Part shown: one piece after another, positions 1,588 to 33,770 of the stretch | Numbering within the stretch: the stretch's first letter is position 1 | Layout of the letters: each line of letters begins with the position of its first letter | UHGV virus genome: UHGV-1967114 | DNA from: a virus | Reading direction: 5' to 3' (one strand) | Length of the DNA: 35,477 bases | Made by a program: the position numbers and the translations under genes | Notes under the pieces: model-generated | What the model was told of the DNA's origin: nothing | The model's input: the letters and a program-made list of their open reading frames with translations, nothing else | Databases searched by the model: none

Positions 1588-2142
1588 ATGAAAGAAGAAT
1601 TAACCCTTACAGAAATTTCCCGTTTATATGGCTATACATTGAATGGTGGCGGTAAGCGATGGTTAGAAAGGGGATTGCCATTTAACACCAATACCCGCCG
1701 CGTGCCAGCCAAAGAAGGAACAGAATGGGTCTTGAAAAATATTATCAACCCGCTTAAACAAACTTCTATCAAAGAACAAATCGACGTAGAGAAATTACGC
1801 CGTGAACGTGCTTTGGCAGATGCAGCCGAACGAGAGAACCAGGAAAAAATGAATCTCCTGATTCCTGTCGGTTATGTAGAACAGGAACTAGCGGAATACT
1901 GCGGGAAAGTGAAACAGACTATTTTGCAGATTTGTACGATCGATGCCCTAGAAATTTTAGAATCCGCCACTGATCAGAAAACATTGAAGAATAAGCTAAG
2001 GGAGATCATCGAACGTCGTTTAAATGAAGTAGGGGACTTGTTCGAAAATGCAGATTTGGGAGAAGACGAGGAAGAAGAATTAGCATTAATGGATGAACCG
2101 GAACAAGAACCAGAAGAAGACGATGAATTTGATGTGTCTTAA
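1588..2142 (+). CDS. Nu1-like DNA-packaging protein / terminase small subunit candidate (N-terminal HTH, GGGK motif, EKLRRE, acidic C-terminus)
   Basis: Pattern resembles lambda Nu1 N-terminus (HTH...GGGK...EKLRRE); strong RBS GGAGG 9 nt upstream; note it is not adjacent to the large subunit. Confidence 0.5.
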   Translation: MKEELTLTEISRLYGYTLNGGGKRWLERGLPFNTNTRRVPAKEGTEWVLKNIINPLKQTSIKEQIDVEKLRRERALADAAERENQEKMNLLIPVGYVEQELAEYCGKVKQTILQICTIDALEILESATDQKTLKNKLREIIERRLNEVGDLFENADLGEDEEEELALMDEPEQEPEEDDEFDVS

Positions 2143-3794: not shown

Positions 3795-3840
3795 TATAAA
3801 TACTCCTGTGGAAAGTTAGTTTTAATTGTTCATCGCAAAA

Positions 3841-3875
3841 GCCTCCTTGTTGCCGCAAGGGGGCTTTTTTATTTT
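3841..3875. terminator. Intrinsic terminator, possibly bidirectional (GCCTCCTTG...CAAGGGGGC + T6, A4 on other side)
   Basis: 9-bp stem with one wobble, 6-nt loop, T-run on plus side and short A-run upstream. Confidence 0.55.
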
Positions 3876-3906
3876 TAAAGCCATCATATAATTCTCAGTC
3901 AAAGTA

Positions 3907-4089
3907 TCAGTAAACCTCTGCGGTTATCTTTACTTTAATGTCATACTTCTTTAAGAGTTTGTGGAAGGTTGATTGATCAATACCTTCACCTTTAAACCAT
4001 TCACCAATCACTACATCAGGCGTCAGTTCAAAATAACGCTTTGCCATTTCTAAAACGATTTCACGAGTGAACTTAACAGGTCGTGCCAT
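3907..4089 (-). CDS. Small putative DNA-binding protein (60 aa), member of a 3-gene paralog family sharing motif F.RE...[FY]..LKKY.IKV
   Basis: Strong RBS AGGAGG 8 nt upstream; shared motif with 7207..7467 and both halves of 7470..8045. Confidence 0.55.
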   Translation of the reverse strand: MARPVKFTREIVLEMAKRYFELTPDVVIGEWFKGEGIDQSTFHKLLKKYDIKVKITAEVY

Positions 4090-4124
4090 CTTGAATCCTC
4101 CTAAATCTGGATTAATTATTTCTT

Positions 4125-4147
4125 AAAAAAAAGAGCGTTAACCGCTC
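4125..4147 (-). terminator. Possible leader terminator/attenuator upstream of 3907..4089 (minus strand GAGCG-GTTAA-CGCTC + T8)
   Basis: Short 5-bp stem but followed by 8 consecutive T on minus strand, located between candidate promoter and the gene RBS. Confidence 0.3.
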
Positions 4148-4606
4148 ATTGTTATTTATACGGGGATTGTTTTTTAATTTTTCAACCCCTCACATTTATC
4201 TCTTATATATGTATTTATAACAGAGATATGTTAAAATGTTATTCAGATGTTATCAGGCGTGTTAAATGTGTTAAACCACAGCACGAATTGCTAAAGCGAA
4301 GAACGCGATTTAACCAAATTGATGTATATTTAATCAATTTAGAAAAATGCATAGCACTTTTTGCTAAAGCGGTGAGTATTAATTGAGCTATGAATTGTAA
4401 AGATTTGTTACAGGATTTTCTCTCAGATCCAAACCTTAACAGACATATAACAATTTAACAGGATAATAACAATAGGAAGGAAAATCGGTAAATTTTTACT
4501 TTCAATACAAATATTATAACATATTTATCTCGAATTGTCAATTATACCACTGTTCCTACACAGTGTCAACAAAGGACTTTCAAACCTACACTAGCCCTAC
4601 ACTATG

Positions 4607-4785
4607 AAAATTGCCCCTGAACCAAAATCCCCTAGATTTCACATCCCATTTTTGCCCCTGAAACCCACTATTTTTGCCCCTGAAATTCTGGGAAACAGTG
4701 ATTTTGCCCCTCATTTTTGCCCCTGAAATGCCAATAATTGCCCCTGAAAATCTAATTTTTGCCCCTGAAATTTGCCCCCGAAAAG
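4607..4785 (+). repeat. Array of 8 direct repeats, consensus TTTTTGCCCCTGAAA, spacing 13-41 bp, in a 1.37-kb non-coding region; candidate iterons / protein-binding array
   Basis: Copies at about 4611, 4652, 4674, 4704(variant CTCA), 4717, 4738, 4759, 4772(variant CCCCCGA), all same orientation. Confidence 0.8.
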
Positions 4786-5458
4786 GATTGGTAAGAAAAA
4801 CTCTTTATAAAACATTAAGTTAGTGAGGGCAAAAACGGGGAATTGGGCGTGCATAGATATTATATAACACATTCGCTACGCTCATGTGTAAAACCAAAAA
4901 CAACAAATAACCAAAAAGATATTAGGAGGGCGTAGCCCGACTGCGCGAAGCGCTAACCAATTACTTCTAGTAACACTAATTTAAACTAGATGATACTAGA
5001 TGGTCTTAGAAGGAATTAACTAGTTTGCTCGCTCGCTTCGCTCACTCTCAAACGTCTGCGACGCCACTGCGTGGCATCGAGAATCACTTCTGAAAGGATT
5101 TTCTTGAAAGGGATTTTAAACTAGTTACTAACTGATTCTAGTAAACGAACGAAGTGAGTAACAATCACTTTCTAGAAAGGTATTGGTATCCCTTCGGGAT
5201 TGCAACCTTCGGTTGCTAAATTTCTTCCTGATTATTATTTCTTCAAAAGAAAGATTCTTATATTCTAAAGATACTTCTTCGTTTTGGTGATGATTTAATC
5301 AAAATCTATGAAGGAGGGCTTTAGCCCGACTGAATCCAATCACCTTTCAAGTACAGACCAGTTTTGGACTCTACCAGATCACTCTTTTCATAATAACAAG
5401 AATTTTCTCTTTATAAATAATATTAGATTGATTCACTTTCTTTTAGAGGATTTCCACT

Positions 5459-7135: not shown

Positions 7136-7164
7136 GCCCCTGAATTTCAGGGGCTTTTTGTTTT
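7136..7164 (+). terminator. Intrinsic terminator built from one copy of the TTTTTGCCCCTGAA motif paired with its inverted partner (GCCCCTG-AATTT-CAGGGGC + T-run)
   Basis: 7-bp GC stem, 5-nt loop, TTTTTGTTTT immediately downstream of stop at 7127. Confidence 0.65.
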
Positions 7165-7172
7165 CTATAGGT

Positions 7173-7198
7173 ATAAAAAAGCCACTCCGAAGAGTGGC
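7173..7198 (-). terminator. Intrinsic terminator for the minus-strand operon (GCCACTC-CGAA-GAGTGGC, A-run on plus = T-run on minus)
   Basis: Perfect 7-bp stem and tetraloop 9 nt downstream of stop of 7207..7467. Confidence 0.6.
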
Positions 7199-7206
7199 AA
7201 TGAGAA

Positions 7207-7467
7207 TCAAACTCCGTTGATTGGTACAACCTCTCCACCGTCTACACGTATAAAGAACTCGACATTAAGTTTCTTCATACTTTTATAAAACTGGGCGGTG
7301 GAGATGCCCAGATCGTTTAATACTTTCTCTCTGCTTTCTTTACCCTTGCCAGCTTTGTAAAACTCGTAGCAAATGTATGCCAGTTGTTCACGATTAAAAC
7401 GGGCAGGACGACCGCGAGTAGCTTTAGTAGTCATAGTCATTTTCTCCAAATTAAAGTGAATGTTCAC
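7207..7467 (-). CDS. Small putative DNA-binding protein (86 aa), paralog of 3907..4089
   Basis: Shared motif ...FYKSMKKLNVEFFIRVDGGE.. with the C-terminal half of 7470..8045. Confidence 0.55.
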   Translation of the reverse strand: MNIHFNLEKMTMTTKATRGRPARFNREQLAYICYEFYKAGKGKESREKVLNDLGISTAQFYKSMKKLNVEFFIRVDGGEVVPINGV

Positions 7468-7469
7468 CT

Positions 7470-8045
7470 TTATTTAGAGGACTTAGATTTTATAGGAAAA
7501 AGTTCTCCATCGTCAACTGACATAAAGAACTCAACCTTAATCCCGTACTTCTTCAACCGTGAATAATATGTACCCCGACTTATATCAACCTTGCGAAGCA
7601 CTTCAAAGAAGGACTTAGGATCGTTGTAATAGTGGCTGTACTTCACGTTAGCGAGTTCAACGAATAGTTCTCTTGTATCACCATAGTCTTTCTTAAAAGC
7701 CACGTTACGATAGCGTGTAATGGCATGATTCAATCTCTTCTGTTTAAGCACTTCCCTGATCGGTGTCCACTGCAACCGATAGATAGGACCGTCATCTACT
7801 CGATAGAATCGCTTAATGTCAAAATCAAACCACTCACGGACTCGCTGAAACTCTGTCTGTGATGTGCGATGCTTCTTAAAGAAGTTATGAATATCGGTAT
7901 ACCCATTATCACGATACAACTCGATTAAAATCTGTTTAGCTTCCTCACGACTAAAGCCAGATGTTGTGTAGTCGGTCTTTAAGTGCTTATGTTTTACTGG
8001 CAAACGATATTCATGATCGGTACAAGACAAGACAAGACAAGACAA
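7470..8045 (-). CDS. Protein with tandem duplication of the same HTH-like module (191 aa); start codon uncertain (only TTG candidates, inside the pentanucleotide repeat)
   Basis: Two internal copies of the family motif ending VDDG; no in-frame ATG near 5' end. Confidence 0.45.
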   Translation of the reverse strand: MSCLVLSCTDHEYRLPVKHKHLKTDYTTSGFSREEAKQILIELYRDNGYTDIHNFFKKHRTSQTEFQRVREWFDFDIKRFYRVDDGPIYRLQWTPIREVLKQKRLNHAITRYRNVAFKKDYGDTRELFVELANVKYSHYYNDPKSFFEVLRKVDISRGTYYSRLKKYGIKVEFFMSVDDGELFPIKSKSSK

Positions 8046-8056
8046 GACAAGACAAG
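8022..8056. repeat. Pentanucleotide microsatellite (ACAAG)x7 (CTTGT on minus strand)
   Basis: Seven perfect tandem units read directly from the sequence. Confidence 0.9.
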
Positions 8057-8185
8057 GCTAATTCTAATTCATCTCTTTCTTGCTGATTAATTAGCATACA
8101 CCCCCCCTTAAATCTTAATACCCGTATTTATCAAAATATCAACAATTTAATAAATACCTTCATATTTCGTAATGAGGGTAATTAC

Positions 8186-10099
8186 ATGAAACTGATTTCT
8201 AATAAGGCCAAATTAAAAAAGATTCTCAGAAATGCAGCCAAATATATTACGCCACCGCCTAAACTCCTTCCTTCTGAATGGTGCGAAGCGAATCTAACGC
8301 TAGTCGATGGTCCTCGTGCTGGGGATAAAGTTAAATTACTGTCATTTCAGAAAGGCATGATTGATGCTCCTTTCCTTGAGAAGAAAAAGAAGTACGTTTT
8401 TTGTACGAGTGCGCAGATCGGAAAGACGACCATCATGTCAGGGATCATGTTTAACCAGATGGCAAACGATCCGTGCAATATCATTATCGGGCAAAGTACC
8501 GCTAAAGAAGTGGCTATGTACTTGAATACTAAGATCCGTCCTTCTATTGAAGCATGTCCGGCATTACAGGAAGTGGTAACAGATAAGAATGATCGTAATG
8601 CGGTAAACAACAATAACCAGATTCAGCTAAAAACAAACCATTTCCTTTACATGGTTTCTTTGACCAGTCCTTCAAGTTTGCGTGGGCGTACTGCCAAGTT
8701 AGGGATTGTAGACGAATGCGACGCAGCAACAATCACCGAAGAAGGTTGTCCGGTGGCACTAACTGCAAACCGTTTAACTACCTTTGGTGATGAAGCTCGA
8801 TTGATTGTTTCTAGTACCCCAACCAATAAGCTGGGAATCATTAACCAGCAATGGTTATCAAGTGATATGCGTATGTTTTTTGTTCCGTGTCCTCATTGCG
8901 GGGAACACCAGGTGATCGAGTGGGAAAACGTTCAATTTGAATGGCGTAACATCGATGGTAAGAACTTACCCGATCCTGATACCGCTCGTTATATTTGCCC
9001 CCACTGTAAGCAATCATGGACAGAAGGGGAACGAATCAGGGCAGTAGCGCAAGGCGAGTGGAGAGCAACCCGTGAAAGTGAAGTAGCAGGATTCTGGATC
9101 AGCCGTCTGTATTCACCTTTCAGTAGTATCCGCGCTTGTGTGGTTGATTTTAGTCATGCGTGGCAATCCTTTGATTTACAATCATTTTATAACACAGTGT
9201 TAGGTAAGGTATACGACGATCAGGACACGGCAGTAGAAGCAAATGAACTGGAACAACTCAAAACAGATGTTTCTATCGAGAATATCCCTGATGACGTGAT
9301 TTTCTTGTGTGCGGGTACTGACCAGCAATTAGATCGCGCAGAAACTACGATCATGGGCGTGGCAAAGGATAAGATTTATATTCTGGATCATCGCAGCTTT
9401 TACGACCATAACTGTGAACGATATGAATCTCCTGTATGGGACAGATTAATCAACTTCCATAAAACCAAATTTACTACTGTATCGGGTGATCGTGTTCCTA
9501 TGCTCGCCAGCTTCCTTGATACATCGAACGGTCGATTCACTCAAGCCGGATACCGTATTTGCGGTGGTAAGTGGAAGAACTTACACGCAATCAAAGGTAG
9601 TTCATCTGGTACTGCTCCAATCATTCCGGTGAAACCAACTACCACGGGTGGTCATGAATTGCTTATGTTGGGCGTTAACGTGGGTAAAACGGCTATTCGT
9701 GAGCTATTAACACGCAACTTGAAAGAAAACCCTCATATTGGTTTAGAGATATCAGAAACCGTTCCTGATGATTATCTCGATCAGCTTTTGAGTGAATCCA
9801 TCAAGCGTACTGTTACTGGAACACGTTGGGTAAAAAATCCAGGTGCGACACGAAACGAGGCGCTCGACTGTCTGGTTTATAGCTATGCGGCTTCTCGCTA
9901 TGTTCTTTCAAAAATGTCATGGGATAAGCTCATTGCAATGAAAGAAAAGCTGAATCGTGAACCAGAAGCAACCGTAGAAGCTCCTAAATCACATTCTAAC
10001 GAGCAAATCGAAGAAACTAAGCCAATCACTCATCACAAACCTAATCGTCGTCCTATGGCGCGTCCTGTGCGTCGTGGTGGGTGGGTAAATAACTTTTAA
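8186..10099 (+). CDS. Terminase large subunit (lambda gpA-like ATPase/nuclease)
   Basis: 637 aa; Walker A-like SAQIGKTT and Walker B LGIVDECD; CPHCGEH...CPHCKQ motif; position upstream of portal. Confidence 0.85.
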
Positions 10100-16041: not shown

Positions 16042-19000
16042 ATGCAATCAATCCAATTTAAACGCACACAAACGGCTGGTAAAAAACCAACGCCGGAACA
16101 ATTACAGGTCGGTGAAATCGCTATTCAGATGGCAGACCATGTAATTTACACCAAAGACAAAAATAACGCAGTAGTTCAAATCAGCGTTTCCCCAGAAAGT
16201 CATAATGCTTTAAACACGAAAGTAGACAATAACAAAACTAGCACTGACCGTGTTATTGCTTCCAACAAACAAGAGGCCGCTAATAATCTGGCTAGTGCTA
16301 AAGCTGAACTGAATCAGACTATTACCACGAAAGATACAGCGACCAATAAGCGCATTGATGCTACCAACACCACTGTTAGTAACTTAACCCAGACAGTTAC
16401 GGCAAATAAAACCGATGCCGACACTAAGATCAATAACCTTACGGGGACCGTATCTGCGAATAAGACCGCAATTGAAAGAACCGTTGCCGCAAACAAATCT
16501 GATGCAGATAGCAAACATGCAGCTTTAACGAAAACGGTCACTGACAATAACACCGCGATTAACAACAAGGTTAATACCACTAACACCAACGTTAGCAACT
16601 TAACTAAAACTGTTACTGCAAATAAAACCGATGCAGATAACAAAATTTCTAGCTTAACTAGCACGGTTGCAGCTAACAAGACAGCGATCGAAAAGACTGT
16701 TTCCGACAATAAGAAAGACGCGGATACTAAGATTACCAATCTTACTGGCACTGTTAATAGCAACCATACCGCAATTAACAACAAGGTAGACCAGAATAAA
16801 TCTTCTACTGATGCCGCAATTGCAGCCGCTAACAAACGAATTGATGGTATTGAAGGTAGCAATGATGCTCTTTACATCAAGAAGAATACCAATACTAAGC
16901 ATGGTGGGTATCTGTTAAGCAAGACAGCTAACTATCTGGAAGACCAGACATCACGAGATCTTAACTACTTTGGTGCTTTCCGTACCAATGGTCAAGATGG
17001 ACTCATGGATCTAACTCTTAACGTTCCTCACTCTTCCGGTAAAGCGCACGGTCGCGGATTTACTTTCCGTTATGCATCTGGTGGATCTCGTGTTGAAACC
17101 TATGGTTTTGATAGAGAAGGACAGAAGAACTTTAGCTATAAGATGTATCACGAAGGTGATAAGCCGACTCCTGGCGAGATTGGTGCATACACCAAAGCCG
17201 AAGTTGATAAGATGTTTGTTAAAAACGTCGTTATGTCTGTTCCCAATTCTAGCGAAAACGTATCTGCATATTTCAAATTGGCAACCGCAACAATTCCACA
17301 AAACGGGCGTAGTGTGTTTTTCCGTATTCATGGTGGTAATGGTTACAACGTTACGGCATATGATCAGGTTGACGTAGTAGAAATTCTTCTGCGTAGTGGT
17401 AACGATAGACCTAAAGGTCTTAACGTAATTGCATACCGTAGAAATACAAACAAAGATTTTGAGGTATTTGCTGTCAATACTTCCGGTGATAACTATGATA
17501 TCTACGTGAAATATCAGCGTTATACCGATAACGTTATTGTCGAATATGGGAAATCTGTTTATGTAAGTTTGACGGTTTATGATACGCCGGAAGCCACGTT
17601 AATTAAACCTTCCGTTGGTGTTATCGGTGGTCGCAACGTAACTCTTTTTAATACTGAAAATAAACGTGGTGTGTTAAGTTTTGATGATAACACACAAAAC
17701 AGCTATGACATTGTTCATCTAAGTAATGATAAAGGTACTGGACGGAAATATATTCGTAAATTCCGTAGCAACTATAACGAAATGGTTTGGCATGAAACCG
17801 TTCAGGGTGCTGTATATCGTCTTGCTACTGGTGCTACAGATTCTACAGAAGTTATTAGAATTGATTCTAATAGTGCAATACCGGGTAATTATAAAGGATA
17901 TGTAATTACTGGTAAAATGGAATTGCACGGTAGTGGTAATGCGATGACTTTACATCGACAGACTGGTCAAGCTGCATATATGGCGTGGTGGGATCGTCGT
18001 GATGGTAAAAACCAACGTAGTGGTTATATCGGTCATGCGGATGGTACTAGTGATGGTTTTGTGTGGCGTAATGATGTTGGTGCTAACTCATTTGATTTGG
18101 AAGGTAGTGGACAAGTAAATTTGACTACAGGAAAAACAAAAATTGTATATACCAATGGTCAATATTATTCCGCTAACGCTGATGCATTCCGTATGATTTA
18201 CGGTAAGTATGGTGCATTCTGGCGAAATGATGGTGGTAAAGTTTATCTGTTGTCTACTGCCGAAAATGATAGATTTGGTGGTTGGAATACATATCGACCT
18301 TTTATCTACGATCTTACTTCCGGTAACGTTCAATTAGGTGGTGATGGAAACGAAGATGTATTAACTCTAGAACGCGCAAGCAAGGCCGCTCGATTCTCTG
18401 GCAACGCTTACATCAAAGGTCAACATTTAACATTTGATGCTGGTGCTGGACAATCCCGCGATTACTTCCGGTTTAACCATTGGGGCGATAGTAATAACGC
18501 TCGCGATAACATCCTACAGATTGAAGACAGTCAGGGTGCACACTTTACCACTGAACGCGCTATGGGTACTGGCAATATCACAGCACGTTTTAAAGGCTTC
18601 GTGCGTGTAGAATCCGGTGAGATTGCCTTTGATGCTAATCGTGGATCTGCGTCTCAATTTACCTTACATACATGGGGTAACGAGCAACGCAAACAGGTTT
18701 TTGAATGTAAGGATGCTACTAGTTATCATTGGTATACCGAACGTACAAACGGTGGAACTGGTCCTATCCTGTTCTCTGTTGCTGGTACATTAAAAACTGC
18801 GAGCAATATACAGGTTGGCGGTGCTGATATTGAGTTTCGTCGCAGTGGTAATAAGCATTTATGGTTTAGAGATCCGAACGGTTTAGAATTAGGTTTGATG
18901 TACTGCGATGATGCTGGTGTTATCCGCTTCCGTGGTCAGAAACAAGGTCAAACTTGGAAACTTGCTGATAAAATGATTCATCTTGAGGCGGGGACTGTCG

Positions 19001-19644
19001 GCGGGTCTGATAAAGGTTTGATTCGTGGTAATGTTGCTGGTGGTAGCTGGGCTAGCTGGCGTGATCGTTCTGCCGGAATCCTCGTAGACTGTCCGAACTC
19101 AACCGATTCCGCTCATAACATCTGGAAAGCGACTCATTGGGGAAAATATCATATTGCGGCAATGGGTGTGCATGTTCCTAGTGGTACTATTACCAATGCT
19201 TTAGCTCGCCTAAACGTTCACGACGCCAACTTTGACTTTAACGCTGCGGGTGATTTTAGCGCAGGTCGTAACGGTAGCTTTAACGATGTTTACATTCGCT
19301 CTGACTCCCGTTTGAAGATTAACAAGGAAGAATTACAGGACGGTGCATTAGAGAAAGTAAACTCACTGAAAGTCTACACCTACGATAAAGTTAAATCTCT
19401 TTCCGATGACACGGTGATTAAACGCGAAGTAGGTATTATTGCTCAGGATCTGGAAAAAGTATTGCCGGAAGCAGTAGGTATTCAATCCACAGAAGATCCA
19501 GAACAACCGGAAGCAATCAAGACTATTTCTAACTCTGCTGTTAATGCCTTGATTATTAAAGCTATGCAGGAAATGGACGCCAAATATAAAACACAGATCG
19601 AAGCATTACAGAAAGAAATTGCCGAACTGAAAGCAACTAAATAA
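16042..19644 (+). CDS. Tail fiber protein (1200 aa) with N-terminal repetitive shaft and C-terminal intramolecular chaperone (peptidase S74-like) domain
   Basis: Repeats TVTANKTDADTKI...; C-terminal YIRSDSRLKINKEELQ...LKVYTYDK matches endosialidase-type chaperone signature (recollection). Confidence 0.75.
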   Translation: MQSIQFKRTQTAGKKPTPEQLQVGEIAIQMADHVIYTKDKNNAVVQISVSPESHNALNTKVDNNKTSTDRVIASNKQEAANNLASAKAELNQTITTKDTATNKRIDATNTTVSNLTQTVTANKTDADTKINNLTGTVSANKTAIERTVAANKSDADSKHAALTKTVTDNNTAINNKVNTTNTNVSNLTKTVTANKTDADNKISSLTSTVAANKTAIEKTVSDNKKDADTKITNLTGTVNSNHTAINNKVDQNKSSTDAAIAAANKRIDGIEGSNDALYIKKNTNTKHGGYLLSKTANYLEDQTSRDLNYFGAFRTNGQDGLMDLTLNVPHSSGKAHGRGFTFRYASGGSRVETYGFDREGQKNFSYKMYHEGDKPTPGEIGAYTKAEVDKMFVKNVVMSVPNSSENVSAYFKLATATIPQNGRSVFFRIHGGNGYNVTAYDQVDVVEILLRSGNDRPKGLNVIAYRRNTNKDFEVFAVNTSGDNYDIYVKYQRYTDNVIVEYGKSVYVSLTVYDTPEATLIKPSVGVIGGRNVTLFNTENKRGVLSFDDNTQNSYDIVHLSNDKGTGRKYIRKFRSNYNEMVWHETVQGAVYRLATGATDSTEVIRIDSNSAIPGNYKGYVITGKMELHGSGNAMTLHRQTGQAAYMAWWDRRDGKNQRSGYIGHADGTSDGFVWRNDVGANSFDLEGSGQVNLTTGKTKIVYTNGQYYSANADAFRMIYGKYGAFWRNDGGKVYLLSTAENDRFGGWNTYRPFIYDLTSGNVQLGGDGNEDVLTLERASKAARFSGNAYIKGQHLTFDAGAGQSRDYFRFNHWGDSNNARDNILQIEDSQGAHFTTERAMGTGNITARFKGFVRVESGEIAFDANRGSASQFTLHTWGNEQRKQVFECKDATSYHWYTERTNGGTGPILFSVAGTLKTASNIQVGGADIEFRRSGNKHLWFRDPNGLELGLMYCDDAGVIRFRGQKQGQTWKLADKMIHLEAGTVGGSDKGLIRGNVAGGSWASWRDRSAGILVDCPNSTDSAHNIWKATHWGKYHIAAMGVHVPSGTITNALARLNVHDANFDFNAAGDFSAGRNGSFNDVYIRSDSRLKINKEELQDGALEKVNSLKVYTYDKVKSLSDDTVIKREVGIIAQDLEKVLPEAVGIQSTEDPEQPEAIKTISNSAVNALIIKAMQEMDAKYKTQIEALQKEIAELKATK
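16366..16797 (+). repeat. In-gene tandem coding repeats (two ~216-nt units with ~33-nt subrepeats) in tail fiber shaft
   Basis: Near-identical stretch ACTGTTACTGCAAATAAAACCGATGC at ~16390 and ~16611; explains spurious minus ORF 16314..16862. Confidence 0.6.
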
Positions 19645-20856: not shown

Positions 20857-20901
20857 ATTCTAAATAAATACAGCGTAATCACTATTAATGAGGAAACAAT
20901 A

Positions 20902-21210
20902 ATGAATCTGAATGAAATGCTGAAAGCTCTTTCTCCGAAACGTGAATCTTTAACCCTCGGCGGATTTACGTTCTATGCTCGCCCTATGTCGGTGCAAGAA
21001 TTTAATGAACATGTTTTCAATACTGATAAAAAAGACCGCGATGAACGCTCTATTCTTCGTTGTATTGAAGATGAAGACGGTAAGCCAGTATTTGAATCTA
21101 TTGAACAAGTTAAGGCACTGTATACTAGCGTCCGCAGCGAATTAATCGGCTTAGTTGCTCAAGCATCATTGATGAAAGATGCGGCGGTAATTGAAAACGA
21201 GGTAAAGTAA
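20902..21210 (+). CDS. Tail assembly chaperone (gpG-like by position)
   Basis: 102-aa ORF between tail tube and tape measure genes, overlapped at 3' end by a -1 frame ORF. Confidence 0.55.
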   Translation: MNLNEMLKALSPKRESLTLGGFTFYARPMSVQEFNEHVFNTDKKDRDERSILRCIEDEDGKPVFESIEQVKALYTSVRSELIGLVAQASLMKDAAVIENEVK

Positions 21211-28700: not shown

Positions 28701-29506
28701 AGAACGGGACCGATGTTTGCCCGTTTGGTATCGAAGGTAACAAGGTTTATCTCGATAATGCGATGATTCGTAATGCTGCAATTGGCACAGCCCAGATTAA
28801 TGATGCGGCGATTACTACCGCTAAGATCGGAAATGCTGCAATTAACAGCGCGAAGATTCAGGACGGGGCAATCACTAACGCCAAGATCGTAAACGGTGCA
28901 ATTGATAACGCCAAAATTGGTAACTATATCCAGTCTTCCAACTGGAACGGATCTACCGGATGGCATATCAACAAGAACGGGTCCGCTACGTTCATGAATG
29001 CTACCGTTAAAGGTAATATCACGGCTGATTCTGGTACTCTGAACAACGTCACGATTAACTCTAGCTGTGTTATTAAGGGTATGCTTGAAGCTACTCAGGT
29101 TAAGGGTGATTTCGTTAAGGTGATTGGTAAGAAATTCCCTCATCGTCAACAAAACTGGCCTGATGGCACTGTTACGGTAAGGGTGGAAGATGATCATAAG
29201 TTTGATCGCCAAATTGTGATTCCAGCTATTCACCATAACGGGTCTGTTCGTCGTGGCGAAAGTAGTGATCATTGGGACACTTGCCGATTAATCGTTAAGA
29301 AAAATGGCTCTGTTCTATATGATCGCACGGCTACTTCTGGCAGCATGTACACAGGCGTTATTGACATGCCAGCGGGTAAAGGTGCTGTAACGTTAACATT
29401 CCAAGTTATTTGTGATGGTGTTAACAACTATAACCCAAGTGCATATATCAGCGATCTAACAGTAATGGTAACTAAAAAAGCCACTACTGGTATTACTGTT
29501 TCTTAA
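25760..29506 (+). CDS. Central tail fiber / host specificity protein (lambda gpJ-like) with hydrophobic Gly/Ala-rich N-terminal segment
   Basis: C-terminal ~150 aa (..SGTLNNVTINSSCVIKGMLEA..FPHRQQNWPDGTVTVRVEDDHKFDRQIV...VIDMPAGKGAVTLTF...MVTKKATTGITVS) closely resembles my recollection of lambda J receptor-binding end. Confidence 0.85.
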   Translation: MGFEILVGAVIAGASAGMAAAATFSVMTAVAIGMAAGAMTLIASTVGAPKTPKVQSPDNAVTLGTSNDPKAVIPVVFGTTRTGTNCVYKAVSKQENNKLVQIFSVAEGEIDHYKALFIDNKNVLVGKNMTIRDGILDKGNIKEEYRKVLEVEFRTGKNPNTALSLAKRHLGSDWTDAFKGNGIATMCIVLRRDDKSLAAGVDILQPNSQVAVDVCGLKIRNLETNAIEASTNGVDQIFHYLTNEKYGLSVPIENINVDSFLKVRKQVRQMDLHSNGACDPNASFKENLTSLMQTFGGVMFESFGRITLKLDAPDIVKHTFNEDNIMMGKVSLKTGGTNGYFNTINAMYQEPSIDYSEQMLRYPADAENDATVRADGRIIAKDVEYRFVKSKDQIDKLASIERNKSRITQVISFMTTDAFTAEVWDVISVTYDELKLNNSLWRITAIDRSIDSGIAGMMTITATEYNSQVYTDLNYAATPDNRPSGLPDSMTVQKPTNFRIKATGETIYGKNVTLTWDAPEDFNRYGFQIDYRVSGSPNWIKLGQTSQQIFSVNALAKDRSYDYRVCAFGIIARSDWVELINQNPTVTYELPTPVIRIKNQGSTPGTFEGNDLIIEWENQQQLDVEINGETNKFSDLFEAYIIKVTNKAGKSIQYRTRDPESWTYTLDMNQFNGLSRQLTVEVSAKGYNNSESAPARLVAINPQHKPMKGFSARGGFNTAFVSWADDVEHDYAGSIIQYATDNTFSDARAVSTNSVSHTSFDIADGDYYIRGAHYDIFGMDDAVWSEPYFMSMKSTISWDDQDKEALEDLIGLQDRLDETIADAIAQAGANADAKIDAMHKQITTETGQTVQASADTLKSLITSGDQASATKIDQVKAELKGDITKEVSASATTLKQAIATSEAASASKIDQVRVEMDGKIAGVNQEADVKIDALKGTINSKYNLAVNADGRVAGIHMSATNDPAQPTKIIFTADKIAVAPQNGTDVCPFGIEGNKVYLDNAMIRNAAIGTAQINDAAITTAKIGNAAINSAKIQDGAITNAKIVNGAIDNAKIGNYIQSSNWNGSTGWHINKNGSATFMNATVKGNITADSGTLNNVTINSSCVIKGMLEATQVKGDFVKVIGKKFPHRQQNWPDGTVTVRVEDDHKFDRQIVIPAIHHNGSVRRGESSDHWDTCRLIVKKNGSVLYDRTATSGSMYTGVIDMPAGKGAVTLTFQVICDGVNNYNPSAYISDLTVMVTKKATTGITVS

Positions 29507-30764: not shown

Positions 30765-30802
30765 TCAATAAATACCCTCATAGAATCCTATGGAGGTATA
30801 AC

Positions 30803-31150
30803 ATGGCTAAAAATATTTTCACTGAATTTCCTACTTATCCGGTCGATCAGCTTTCCGGTATTTTTATTAATGGCATTAGCCCAGAATCAATGACCTATGA
30901 TTTTGAGGCGAAGAGAGTTAAACATAAACAATATAAAGAATGTATCCGCGATCATGAAAAAGGGACCGTGTTTTGTGTCGCTACATTGGCTAAACGTCCT
31001 AAGTATCGTTTTCGTGTCGGGCAAGAAGTCGATGTAGTTAATCCTTATAGCTTTAACTGTCTGGGTGATGCACGCGCGGTGTGTGTAGGCACTGCTCCTT
31101 ATTATATCAAGGGTATGCGCTTTATTGGTTATATCTTCGAAATGATCTAA
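30803..31150 (+). CDS. Hypothetical protein
   Basis: 115-aa ORF with RBS GGAGG. Confidence 0.55.
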   Translation: MAKNIFTEFPTYPVDQLSGIFINGISPESMTYDFEAKRVKHKQYKECIRDHEKGTVFCVATLAKRPKYRFRVGQEVDVVNPYSFNCLGDARAVCVGTAPYYIKGMRFIGYIFEMI

Positions 31151-31779: not shown

Positions 31780-32052
31780 CTATGATTTATTTTCTTGTTC
31801 TATGAAAATCTTTCTCACCTCATCAGAATAAATGTCTAGTGATTCCTCATAACATTTTCTGTATTCACCGTAATTACTGGTGGTCTTTTGACATAGCAAT
31901 TTCAATGTTTTATGTGCTCCATCAATGAAAGCATCTTCTCTATAGGTTAGCGGTCTACGCATTTCTTGGTCTACGGTTGCCAATGCCAGGCAAGAATTCA
32001 TAGATAAAATCAAACCTAAAATCTTAATCATCTTCATTAGCTTAAATTCCAA
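31780..32052 (-). CDS. Small secreted protein (signal peptide MKMIKILGLILSMNSCLALA), Cys-containing
   Basis: Hydrophobic N-terminus with ALA cleavage-like site; overlaps 3' end of recombinase gene. Confidence 0.5.
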   Translation of the reverse strand: MEFKLMKMIKILGLILSMNSCLALATVDQEMRRPLTYREDAFIDGAHKTLKLLCQKTTSNYGEYRKCYEESLDIYSDEVRKIFIEQENKS

Positions 32053-33721
32053 ATTCCTGTAATGGACCTGGTATTTCTTCTTCTGGTTTCCAGTTCTTAT
32101 CTGTCAGCATGTCTAAACATGGATGCAGAACAAGCCCGTTACTCTCCAGAATCTGCCTATCATTGATAGTCTTCAAATCAATGAAGATCCGGCCTTTCCT
32201 CGGTCCTCTTGAATTTTCTATTACAACTCTCTGGGTCTTGCCATCGATGTATTCCAATACAAACAAGTTTTTGTACTTGTCAATCCTGCTACACCCGATC
32301 CGTTTTAGAGCTTGCTTAATCTTAAACCGGACCTTAATGCGATCCTCGTTGTAAACATCTTCTAAATCAAATTCTGCGAGCTTCTCCCAGCCTTGAGAGT
32401 CAACAGAATACATTTCCTCTTCTGCCATCTTAATTTGATTGTAGAGTGTTTCACGCTCGCTATTGAGGGTAGTAATCTGATCGGCTAGCTCCTTCGTTGC
32501 TCCTGTCATAGCAGAAAGGGTAATCAGGTTATCAATCTTGCGTGATATTTCATCAATCTGTACTTTCAAAGCCGGAACCGGATTAGCCTTATCTTCAGCA
32601 ATCCAGATTTTATCAGCCAGCAATTGCAATACAGCTTTCTCTAATTGGTCGCCGCGAAAACTCCAGTTTGTATGCACACATTCAATACGACTAGAGCGCA
32701 TTGCATCGCATGAATAACGATATTGGTTAGGCCGTCTGTTTGTTCCTTTCACCTTAACCATAGCGGAACCGCAATGTTCACATTTCAATAGACCAACACC
32801 ACTAAGCAAGGGAATAGGTTTAACTTCTTCTTTGTCTCCAAAGTTACATGCTCTAACACCAATGCTTTTCTTAAGGTGATAAAACTCAGCGTCATCTAGC
32901 ACACGAGGATAATAATCCTTTAACTCATACTTAACGCCATCTACAGAGATTTCCTTGATACCAATCAAAGCGCGGGTATGGAACAACCTTTCAATCATTG
33001 CCCGTGACCAGTTTGAATGCCTCTTGTGACTTGCGGCTGGTGGTGGTGTGTATGTCGCGTTAAGGTGATCCAGTATCTCGGCGGTTGACCGTCCATTCCT
33101 GCGTAATTCCACAACTTCCTGAACAATAGGGAAGAAGACCGGATGAGGAAGCACATAACCAGATGTGGTATCAGTCCACCACATATTCTTTCCAATTTCC
33201 TCGATTGCAACAGCCGGATTTTGTGGATTTTCTTGATGAGCTTTAATCTTAATCAGTGCGCTTGAGTTAGTACGATTGCGCTTAGTCTGGCTTTCCTCAT
33301 TACCACGGATGAATAAAAGGATGGAGAACATCAGGTCCATCGGGTTAGCGGTAACAGTATCCAGCGAGTAGATCTTGTTATCCATGCCAGTAACAATGGT
33401 TATCCCCCTACGGATGATTGAAAGGAATAACTCCTGCGCACTGACAATATCGGCACGGGATAAACGGTCCAAGTTTTCGATGAATAGCCAGCTACCAACA
33501 GGAACGGATCTACCTATTGCATCAAGGAAACGAGATAGCGCCCCTGTTTTGGAGTTAGCACCCTTAAACGCAGATACACCCAGATCCTGATAATCATTTA
33601 CCAGTTCAAGGTCATACTTTACCGCAATCTCTCTAGCCATCCTGATTTGTCGTTCATAACTCGAACCATCATTCTGACGCATAGACGAGAAGCGAATATA
33701 CGAATACAGTTTAGTTTTCAT
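32042..33721 (-). CDS. Large serine recombinase (probable prophage integrase); start taken at ATG 33721
   Basis: N-terminal resolvase-type motif YIRFSSMRQ (catalytic Ser), central recombinase region, zinc-ribbon CEHCGSAMVKV...YRYSCD...IECVH; 559 aa. Confidence 0.85.
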   Translation of the reverse strand: MKTKLYSYIRFSSMRQNDGSSYERQIRMAREIAVKYDLELVNDYQDLGVSAFKGANSKTGALSRFLDAIGRSVPVGSWLFIENLDRLSRADIVSAQELFLSIIRRGITIVTGMDNKIYSLDTVTANPMDLMFSILLFIRGNEESQTKRNRTNSSALIKIKAHQENPQNPAVAIEEIGKNMWWTDTTSGYVLPHPVFFPIVQEVVELRRNGRSTAEILDHLNATYTPPPAASHKRHSNWSRAMIERLFHTRALIGIKEISVDGVKYELKDYYPRVLDDAEFYHLKKSIGVRACNFGDKEEVKPIPLLSGVGLLKCEHCGSAMVKVKGTNRRPNQYRYSCDAMRSSRIECVHTNWSFRGDQLEKAVLQLLADKIWIAEDKANPVPALKVQIDEISRKIDNLITLSAMTGATKELADQITTLNSERETLYNQIKMAEEEMYSVDSQGWEKLAEFDLEDVYNEDRIKVRFKIKQALKRIGCSRIDKYKNLFVLEYIDGKTQRVVIENSRGPRKGRIFIDLKTINDRQILESNGLVLHPCLDMLTDKNWKPEEEIPGPLQEFGI

Positions 33722-33730
33722 ACCATTTCC

Positions 33731-33770
33731 AAACAAAAACGCCCCTACCGCGTATTATAACGATAGGGGC
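33731..33770 (-). terminator. Terminator-like hairpin between secreted-protein gene and recombinase gene (minus strand)
   Basis: GCCCCTA...TAGGGGC stem with 16-nt loop, followed on minus strand by GTTTTTGTTT. Confidence 0.45.

What the first reader, a model, noticed from the sequence alone, without database searches (positions are those of the whole stretch)
8022..8056. (ACAAG)x7 microsatellite at the 5' end of the tandem-HTH gene and next to the terminase promoter region
Seven perfect pentanucleotide units lie at the start of ORF 7470..8045; its only possible start codons (TTG) are inside the repeat, and the tract sits ~130 bp upstream of the large terminase start. Gain or loss of one unit shifts the frame by 5 nt, so slipped-strand mispairing could switch this protein on or off, or alter divergent promoter spacing. 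That would be a phase-variation-like mechanism, uncommon in enterobacterial phages.
Basis: seen in the sequence. Interest (0 to 1): 0.45.

Follow-up and report, generated by a model that had tools for sequence, protein, structure and literature searches.

The report
Frame-switching pentanucleotide repeat in prophage gene
A perfect 5-base repeat just inside a conserved DNA-binding gene of an E. coli prophage changes its copy number (5 to 9) between otherwise identical prophages, putting the gene in or out of reading frame; the copy in this window (7 units) is out of frame.

Summary
The (ACAAG)x7 tract at 8022..8056 is real. On the coding (minus) strand it reads (CTTGT)x7.

The gene ("X") starts at ATG 8097..8095, behind a Shine-Dalgarno run, 41 nt upstream of the tract. 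About 30 relatives carry two or fewer units and an intact ORF of about 200 aa from that ATG. With 7 units the ATG frame stops after 28 codons, so this copy is OFF. In-frame counts are 2, 5, 8 and so on.

On two sequence backgrounds, contigs that differ by 0-5 substitutions over 1-9 kb carry n = 5, 6, 7, 8 (and 9 on the second). The predicted in-frame 205-aa and 210-aa proteins exist in public E. coli assemblies. The downstream ORF is intact in all 19 expanded loci.

This matches translational phase variation by slipped-strand mispairing, as in Neisseria opa (CTCTT)n. Here it sits in a temperate coliphage, although E. coli coding regions tend to avoid such repeats.

X is an orphan tandem helix-turn-helix protein. 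With its small paralog Y it always lies divergent from terL. Its function is unknown. Switching rate and any adaptive value are untested. The promoter-spacing idea is not supported.

The parts
8022..8056 (-). (CTTGT)x7 on the coding strand, (ACAAG)x7 on the + strand. A hypermutable pentanucleotide tract in codons 15-26 of gene X. Seven units is out of frame.
   Evidence: Allele series n=5-9.
8095..8097 (-). True ATG start codon of gene X.
   Evidence: In 29 of 31 IMG/VR relatives this ATG opens an intact ORF of 197-201 aa. The N-terminus MLINQ..RDELELALSC is conserved in Salmonella and Proteus homologs.
8101..8109 (-). Shine-Dalgarno region AAGGGGGGG (a G7 run) 3 nt before the ATG. Relatives have AAGGAGGG or G5-G6.
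8011..8097 (-). Truncated reading frame actually opened by the ATG in this window: 28 codons ([28 protein letters not shown]) followed by TGA at 8013..8011.
7470..8021 (-). Body of gene X downstream of the tract: 183 codons plus stop, two three-helix plus beta-hairpin (HTH-like) modules. It is intact but out of frame with the ATG in this window.
8001..8003 (-). In-frame TTG used as the start by PGAP (177-aa product). It lies 7 nt after the TGA of the truncated frame and is a possible weak re-initiation site. No Shine-Dalgarno sequence precedes it.
7207..7434 (-). Gene Y (75 aa), a single-module paralog of X with its own GGAG ribosome-binding site. It is the second gene of the X-Y operon.
   Evidence: BLASTP E 2e-8 to X module 2. 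Synteny.
7181..7198 (-). Terminator-like hairpin plus T-run that ends the X-Y operon. It faces a + strand terminator at 7136..7154 after the Rha gene.
8124..8131 (-). ATAAATAC motif 26 nt upstream of the X ATG, a putative -10-like promoter element.
8150..8157 (+). ATAAATAC motif 28 nt upstream of the terL ATG, a putative terL promoter element lying back to back with that of X.
8186..10099 (+). Large terminase (GpA ATPase plus nuclease), the divergent neighbour of X.

Best explanation
The tract is a hypermutable simple-sequence repeat inside the 5' coding region of a conserved prophage gene, X. It switches that gene between a full-length product and an early stop by slipped-strand mispairing. 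Translation starts at ATG 8097 behind an AAGGGGGGG Shine-Dalgarno sequence. After 14 codons the ribosome enters (CTTGT)n. When n = 2, 5, 8 and so on, the frame continues into the 183-codon body, and each extra three units add the pentapeptide LVLSC at the junction between an N-terminal helix and a disordered linker. Any other n gives a stop after 28-37 codons. The window has n = 7, one unit away from the in-frame n = 8, so X is OFF here, apart from possible weak re-initiation at a TTG. The downstream gene Y has its own ribosome-binding site. Shown here: the tract, the true start, the frame arithmetic, natural alleles n = 5-9 on near-identical backgrounds, the existence of both in-frame and out-of-frame alleles, and an intact downstream ORF under purifying selection. 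Inferred: that the changes arise by replication slippage at high, reversible rates within a lysogen population (5-nt loops are poorly corrected by E. coli MutS, from my own knowledge of Parker and Marinus 1992). Also inferred, at roughly even odds, is that this is a selected bet-hedging switch for a late-expressed DNA-binding protein acting beside the terminase gene.
For: The tract is exact. The ATG start and N-terminus are conserved: 29 of 31 relatives have two or fewer units and an intact ORF of 197-201 aa, and family alignment A1 shows M1, N4, E10, L13, A14, S16 and C17 nearly invariant. Background A, which includes the window, gave these loci: L044 n=5 with 0 mismatches over 4796 nt, L043 n=5, L035 n=6 with 0 mismatches over 5301 nt, L034/L036/L045/L046 n=7, and L042 n=8 with 0 mismatches over 5301 nt. 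Over the whole 35-kb prophage, the window and strain 24AR0357 differ by one SNP inside the prophage, one repeat unit and two small insertions. Background B gave n=5 (L048-L050), n=6 (L052, L055), n=7 (L033, L053, L054, L056), n=8 (L051) and n=9 (L018), with 0-5 mismatches over 1-8.8 kb. Exact-sequence look-ups found the predicted in-frame products: 205 aa and 210 aa on background A (1 contig for the 205-aa product, with 3 read; 2 contigs for the 210-aa product), and 10 and 1 contigs on background B. The out-of-frame 191-aa product is on 63 contigs (A) and 11 contigs (B). An n=2 version of either exact protein is absent. The downstream ORF is intact in all 19 expanded loci, and dN/dS is about 0.1. 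The AlphaFold model places the insertion point next to a low-confidence linker, residues 18-29.
Against: No within-culture switching rate has been measured, so all variation seen is between isolates or samples. Out-of-frame alleles dominate background A (63 contigs against about 3-5 in-frame). That could reflect drift in a gene that lysogens do not need, rather than regulated bet-hedging. The contigs are not independent samples. Other lineages carry ordinary disruptions of X (truncations, fusions, IS3 chimeras), and identical prophages carry small insertions in terL and the portal gene. So prophage decay is happening in this group. The function of X is unknown, so no phenotype can be attached to ON or OFF.
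Confidence: 0.75

Rival explanations
1. The tract is an unstable microsatellite with no biological role. It expanded by chance in a prophage gene that lysogens do not need, and its length simply drifts. The out-of-frame alleles are early steps of pseudogenisation.
For: Out-of-frame alleles predominate on background A. Other X alleles are broken by truncations and IS insertions. Small insertions hit terL and the portal gene in otherwise identical prophages. Among the 21 DNA-checked sequences (20 contigs plus the window), 7 are in frame, close to the one-third expected without selection. That sample was biased by my own searches for in-frame products.
Against: Every unit is perfect in all 20 contigs on two backgrounds whose X genes differ at dS of about 0.43. 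No out-of-frame allele has a second lesion in the 183-codon body. X and Y are strictly conserved next to terL down to 45% identity, with dN/dS of about 0.1. In-frame alleles are as frequent as out-of-frame ones on background B.
Confidence: 0.3
2. The out-of-frame alleles are not null. Ribosomes that terminate at TGA 8013..8011 (n=7), or at the TAA just after 8003 (n=6 or 9), re-initiate at TTG 8003 or at TTGs inside the tract. The repeat would then toggle between a full-length protein and a low-level form lacking the N-terminal helix.
For: In every frame the tract supplies in-frame TTG codons. A further TTG lies 7 nt after the stop of the truncated frame. Both HTH modules would be retained.
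Against: No Shine-Dalgarno-like sequence precedes any of these TTGs, and TTG is a weak start codon. The N-terminal 17 residues are nearly invariant in the family, which suggests they are needed.
Confidence: 0.1
3. Unit number acts on transcription, by changing the spacing or helical phase between the divergent X and terL promoters or an upstream activator site.
For: The tract is only 130 nt from the terL ATG. One unit is about half a helical turn.
Against: The tract lies downstream of X's start codon. Both ATAAATAC promoter-like elements and both ribosome-binding sites sit in the conserved 88-nt intergenic region 8098..8185, outside the tract. Relatives with 2 units and those with 5-9 units share that region.
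Confidence: 0.04
4. The unit-number differences are sequencing or assembly artefacts.
For: Short tandem repeats can be mis-assembled, and long-read assemblies make indel errors.
Against: Tracts of 25-45 nt fit inside single short reads. All differences are whole 5-nt units. The same values recur in independent NCBI, ENA, Logan, IMG/VR and JGI records.
Confidence: 0.01

Closest known systems
Neisseria opa genes: (CTCTT)n pentameric repeat in the leader-peptide coding sequence (PMC3745409)
   Same: Both have a pyrimidine-rich pentanucleotide repeat just inside the 5' coding region. Unit number sets the reading frame, so one length class in three is in frame. Repeat units in frame are translated as extra hydrophobic residues. 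Natural populations hold both ON and OFF alleles.
   Different: There is no sequence homology. Here the host is E. coli, whose coding regions avoid SSRs (PMC3315296). The gene is a single-copy prophage late-region gene for a cytoplasmic DNA-binding-type protein, not a multi-copy surface adhesin. The switching rate is unmeasured here, against about 1e-3 for opa.
Phage contingency loci in T2, T4 and others (Gomez, Barrick and Waters, bioRxiv 2025, PMC12633550)
   Same: A slippage-prone repeat inside a phage gene gives reversible frameshifts and mixed progeny, proposed as bet-hedging.
   Different: Those loci are mononucleotide runs of 6 or more bases in lytic phages, shown by reversion assays and deep sequencing. 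Here it is a multi-unit pentanucleotide tract in a temperate prophage, supported by a natural allele series only. That paper has no occurrence of 'temperate' or 'pentanucleotide'.
Promoter-spacer SSR phase variation (for example meningococcal nadA upstream repeats, PMC2791445)
   Same: Repeat-number change alters expression of an adjacent gene.
   Different: In that class the tract lies in or upstream of the promoter and changes transcription. Here it lies inside the ORF and changes the reading frame.
lacI (CTGG)3 frameshift hotspot of E. coli (Farabaugh et al. 1978, from my own knowledge)
   Same: Gain or loss of whole short repeat units by slippage inside an E. coli coding sequence.
   Different: lacI has only three units and is a mutational hotspot with no switch role. 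Here there are 5-9 perfect units with both frames populated in nature.

Membership tests
SSR-mediated translational phase-variable gene (contingency locus) | Perfect tandem repeat, with a unit length not divisible by 3, inside the 5' part of the ORF. | tested here: met
   (CTTGT)x7 at codons 15-26, 100% pure.
SSR-mediated translational phase-variable gene (contingency locus) | Unit number differs among otherwise identical or near-identical genomes. | tested here: met
   n=5, 6, 7, 8 on background A with 0 mismatches over 4.8-5.3 kb. n=5-9 on background B with 0-5 mismatches.
SSR-mediated translational phase-variable gene (contingency locus) | Unit number decides whether the authentic start codon is in frame with the ORF, and both states occur while the rest of the ORF stays intact. 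| tested here: met
   Frame arithmetic. In-frame 205-aa and 210-aa products and out-of-frame 191-aa and 196-aa products are in public data. The ORF is intact in 19 of 19 expanded loci.
SSR-mediated translational phase-variable gene (contingency locus) | High-frequency, reversible switching within a clonal population. | not testable with these tools
   This needs read-level or culture data. Only a rough inference is possible: at least 3-4 unit changes against 0-5 substitutions in about 5 kb.
SSR-mediated translational phase-variable gene (contingency locus) | A phenotype that differs between ON and OFF and is under fluctuating selection. | not testable with these tools
   The function of X is unknown.
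Promoter-spacing SSR switch | The tract lies between or upstream of the core promoter elements of the regulated gene. | tested here: not met
   The tract is 41 nt downstream of X's ATG. The conserved promoter-like elements lie at 8124..8131 and 8150..8157. Transcription start sites have not been mapped.
Small terminase subunit (as a possible identity of X and Y) | Sequence or fold membership in a known TerS family. | tested here: not met
Small terminase subunit (as a possible identity of X and Y) | Gene adjacent to terL, and a DNA-binding winged-helix domain. | tested here: inconclusive
   X and Y are always next to terL but divergent from it. The model shows two three-helix plus hairpin modules.
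HTH DNA-binding proteins (HTH_23 / HTH_28-like) | A significant match to an HTH family profile. | tested here: inconclusive

The most novel reading that the evidence does not exclude
A temperate coliphage keeps a pentanucleotide contingency locus in a conserved late gene beside its terminase. Each lysogen population would then continuously produce prophages with and without this DNA-binding protein. Possible purposes are to gate productive packaging or late development, or to escape a host defence that senses or is countered by X. The mutable tract may have spread between prophage lineages by recombination: the only relative identical to the window across the whole -50..+47 patch around the tract is the other expanded lineage.
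Probability: 0.3. Interest if true: 0.75.

Novelty: new member of a known kind. Interest (0 to 1): 0.58.

Why it matters
Repeat-driven phase variation is textbook for Neisseria, Haemophilus and Campylobacter. It is largely absent from accounts of E. coli, where fim inversion and Dam-dependent pap switching dominate (PMC11868660). For phages it has only just been proposed, and only for homopolymer runs in lytic phages (PMC12633550). This locus is a naturally replicated allele series (n=5-9 on two backgrounds) in a common E. coli prophage group found in 54 of 5426 complete genomes. That makes it directly testable whether temperate phages use multi-base repeats to bet-hedge. It also gives a handle on the function of an orphan gene pair that is conserved beside terL. 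On the practical side, annotation pipelines mis-start this gene: PGAP calls a 177-aa product from a TTG. Repeat number would also be a fast-evolving typing marker for these lysogens.

Tried and rejected

2. X or Y as the small terminase. This is not supported by homology, and a separate TerS-like ORF exists at 1588..2142. A PDB sequence search with that ORF was uninformative.

3. Repeat length affecting Shine-Dalgarno accessibility. Single-sequence folding pairs the SD with the first units of the tract, but the predicted unpaired probability is the same (0.12-0.13) for n=2-9. The alignment fold shows no conserved structure: -1.4 kcal/mol, with an unfavourable covariation term.

4. Single or double origin of the expansion. 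The X-Y region is a recombination mosaic, and neighbour-joining trees and segment identities disagree between segments. This stays unresolved.

5. Species-representative genomes held no relative and no expanded tract. No isolated phage among 50,697 records matches the locus at the DNA level. No paper contains the repeat string in a relevant context.

6. An early coordinate error of mine. I first placed the stop of the truncated frame at 8016..8014; recounting puts the TGA at 8013..8011.

Full report
**1. The observation**

Tandem Repeats Finder reports one perfect array at 8022..8056: period 5, 7.0 copies, 100% matches, score 70. A 20-nt (ACAAG)4 probe with up to two mismatches matches only inside the tract and in none of 100 dinucleotide-preserving shuffles. 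The tract overlaps the 5' end of minus-strand ORF 7470..8045. It ends 130 nt before the ATG of the large terminase gene, 8186..10099, which carries GpA ATPase and nuclease domains. Four independent public contigs are identical to the window here and also carry seven units.

**2. The gene model is different from the one assumed**

On the coding (minus) strand the tract reads (CTTGT)x7. Upstream of it lies AAGGGGGGG-TGT-ATG, with the ATG at 8097..8095.

A protein-pattern scan of IMG/VR returned 31 related prophage loci at 87-94% protein identity. In 29 of them the tract has two or fewer units. In those loci this ATG opens an intact ORF of 197-201 aa that begins MLINQQ.RDELELALSC-TDHEYRLPVKH. Some relatives have a canonical AAGGAGGG Shine-Dalgarno sequence at the same place.

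In an alignment of 28 family members that includes Salmonella and Proteus homologs at 45-66% identity, M1, N4, E10, L13, A14, S16 and C17 are nearly invariant. So the gene, which I call X, starts at ATG 8097, and the repeat occupies codons 15 onward.

With seven units the ATG frame reads [28 protein letters not shown] and stops at TGA 8013..8011. The 183-codon body (7473..8021, followed by the stop codon at 7470..7472) is in another frame. The TTG "starts" are an artefact of the frameshift. PGAP picks yet another TTG, at 8003, and annotates a 177-aa protein. Counts of n = 2, 5, 8, 11 are in frame, and every three extra units add the pentapeptide LVLSC.

**3. Repeat number varies where almost nothing else does**

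The host is Escherichia coli (source names). Relatives occur in 54 of 5426 complete genomes.

Background A is the sequence background of the window:
- Strain 24AR0357 has six units and no other difference over 5301 nt.
- Over the whole 35-kb prophage, 24AR0357 differs from the window by one SNP inside the prophage, one repeat unit and two small insertions.
- GCA_012739335.1 (L042) has eight units and 0 mismatches over 5301 nt.
- Logan contig L044 has five units and 0 mismatches over 4796 nt. L043 also has five units.
- L034, L036, L045 and L046 have seven units.

Background B has an X protein that differs from the window's at 14 of the 183 residues downstream of the tract. Against L033, its members show 0-5 mismatches over 1-8.8 kb:
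- n = 5: L048, L049, L050
- n = 6: L052, L055
- n = 7: L033, L053, L054, L056
- n = 8: L051
- n = 9: L018

I built the protein predicted for each unit number and looked each one up by exact sequence:

| Product | Unit number | Background A | Background B |
|---|---|---|---|
| 205 aa, in frame | 5 | 1 contig listed (3 read) | 10 contigs |
| 210 aa, in frame | 8 | 2 contigs (e.g. WP_440226395.1) | 1 contig |
| 191 aa, out of frame | 6 or 7 | 63 contigs | 11 contigs |
| 196 aa, out of frame | 9 or 10 | not found | 1 contig |
| 200 aa, in frame | 2 | not found | not found |

All 19 expanded loci keep the 183-codon body open. dN/dS between the two backgrounds is about 0.1, with dS about 0.43. The tract therefore mutates orders of magnitude faster than the surrounding sites, always by whole units, and both reading states exist in nature.

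**4. Origin of the tract**

The motif L-S-C is conserved across the family. Only the E. coli branch encodes it as TTG TCT TGT after a C, which makes a (CTTGT)2 proto-repeat. A Salmonella homolog uses CTT TCA TGC for the same residues. Expansion to five or more units was seen only on the two backgrounds.

The region is a recombination mosaic. Background B is the only relative identical to the window across the whole -50..+47 patch around the tract. That hints at one expansion spread by recombination, but independent expansions are not excluded.

**5. What the gene is**

X has no Pfam, PHROG, NCBIfam or PDB relative. A full profile search of 1.84 billion representative proteins found 13 hits, mostly fragments of the same family.

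The AlphaFold model has mean pLDDT 76. It shows:
- an N-terminal helix (residues 5-16),
- a low-confidence linker (residues 18-29),
- two three-helix plus beta-hairpin modules (residues 35-100 and 130-195).

The next gene, Y (7207..7434, 75 aa, with its own GGAG ribosome-binding site), is a single-module paralog of X. A terminator-like hairpin follows Y and faces the terminator of the Rha gene. X and Y therefore form a self-contained minus-strand operon.

The X-Y pair lies divergent from terL in every homolog examined, down to 45% identity in Salmonella and 66% in Proteus. It is a core feature of this prophage group, not a moron.

**6. The promoter region**

The 88-nt X-terL intergenic region is conserved across those distant homologs. 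It contains the motif ATAAATAC once on each strand, 26 nt before the X ATG and 28 nt before the terL ATG.

The motif occurs six times in the window against 2.1 expected; 3 of 100 shuffles reach six. Two further copies lie 30 and 27 nt before the first ATG of the gene blocks that start at 20902 and at 30803, the latter just upstream of the endolysin gene.

I read this as a phage-specific -10-like element shared by X, terL and other late blocks. It resembles the T4 late promoter TATAAATA, which is a recollection, not a test. That would make X a late-region gene. This is inference, and no transcription start site is mapped.

The repeat lies downstream of X's start codon and outside this region. 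The promoter-spacing alternative is therefore unlikely.

**7. Mechanism and rivals**

Best explanation: a translational ON/OFF switch by slipped-strand mispairing, with this window in the OFF state, one unit from ON. It works like the Neisseria opa (CTCTT)n leader-peptide repeats (PMC3745409).

Five-base loops are poorly recognised by E. coli mismatch repair (my own knowledge, Parker and Marinus 1992). That would explain why a pentanucleotide tract can be unstable in a repair-proficient host.

Not shown: the within-population rate, reversibility, and any phenotype.

The main rival is that the instability has no role. Out-of-frame alleles dominate background A. Other lineages carry ordinary truncations and IS3 fusions of X. 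A mobile miniature element has hit terL and the portal gene in otherwise identical prophages. Prophage decay is clearly under way in this group.

Against that rival:
- repeat purity on two backgrounds,
- no second lesion in any out-of-frame allele,
- strong purifying selection on X,
- roughly equal in-frame and out-of-frame counts on background B.

A lesser rival is that out-of-frame alleles still make a truncated protein by re-initiation at TTG 8003, which lies 7 nt after the stop. No ribosome-binding site supports this. I tested RNA-structure effects of tract length on the Shine-Dalgarno sequence and dropped the idea.

**8. Novelty**

The mechanism is a known kind; the setting is new. E. coli coding regions avoid SSRs (PMC3315296). 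A recent review lists E. coli phase variation as recombinase- or Dam-based (PMC11868660). The only report of phage contingency loci that I found concerns homopolymer runs in lytic T-even and other phages, and says such loci had not been described in phages before (PMC12633550). No paper in the library contains this repeat in a relevant context. I rate it a new member of a known kind, of moderate-to-good interest. The natural allele series makes it immediately testable.

Noticed in passing
Window ~8300 (terL), ~11524 (portal) and ~30606, seen in L034 4097..4207 and L047 28361..28471 and 9166..9271: A 106-109-bp element with terminal inverted repeats of about 20 bp (GGGAAGGTGCGAATAAGT...) is absent from the window. 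It is inserted at CTAG or TTAG sites in terL of strain PI7 and in the portal gene and a third site of strain 24AR0357, in otherwise identical prophages. It looks like an active IS630-type miniature transposable element that knocks out virion genes.
   Followed up: partly
Window 8124..8131(-), 8150..8157(+), 20864..20871(+), 30768..30775(+); also 3796(+) and 4211(-): The motif ATAAATAC lies 26-30 nt upstream of the first ATG of X, of terL, of the tail-region block at 20902 and of the block at 30803. There are six copies against 2.1 expected. It is a possible phage-specific late-promoter element that resembles T4 TATAAATA.
   Followed up: partly
Window ends; L047 4390..4509 and 39750..40058: The window is a complete prophage of about 35 kb. 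It is inserted inside hicB, the antitoxin gene of the hicAB toxin-antitoxin pair, and splits it. The integrase is a large serine recombinase (32042..33736, minus strand).
   Followed up: partly
Window 16042..19644: The C-terminal 2.6 kb of the 1200-aa tail-fibre gene is about 80% identical at DNA level to the distal long tail fibre (gp37) of lytic T4-like phages RB49 and JSE. The rest of the prophage matches no isolated phage.
   Followed up: no
Window 8101..8107 (minus strand): The G7 run forming the Shine-Dalgarno sequence of X is G5, G6 or GGAGGG in relatives. It did not vary among the near-identical contigs.
   Followed up: partly
Window 1588..2142: The only ORF with a small-terminase match (PHROG 57, E 6e-11) lies 6 kb from terL, separated from it by genes on both strands. 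PGAP calls it hypothetical.
   Followed up: partly
Window ~3800..5450, including 4436..4473 and 4717..4783: A stretch of about 1.6 kb has no ORF of 80 aa or more. It holds 19-nt, 21-nt and 13-nt tandem repeats. It could be an origin, a cos region or a regulatory region.
   Followed up: no
Proteins P0018, P0022, P0023, P0029, P0036, P0069-P0075; cluster with IS3 transposases: Many other alleles of X in public E. coli assemblies are truncated or fused, and some are clustered with IS3 transposase chimeras. X is often disrupted by ordinary mutations in lineages with only two repeat units.
   Followed up: no
Window 28772..28903: A 60-nt period tandem repeat (2.2 copies, 76% matches) lies inside the 1248-aa tail-tip protein gene.
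   Followed up: no
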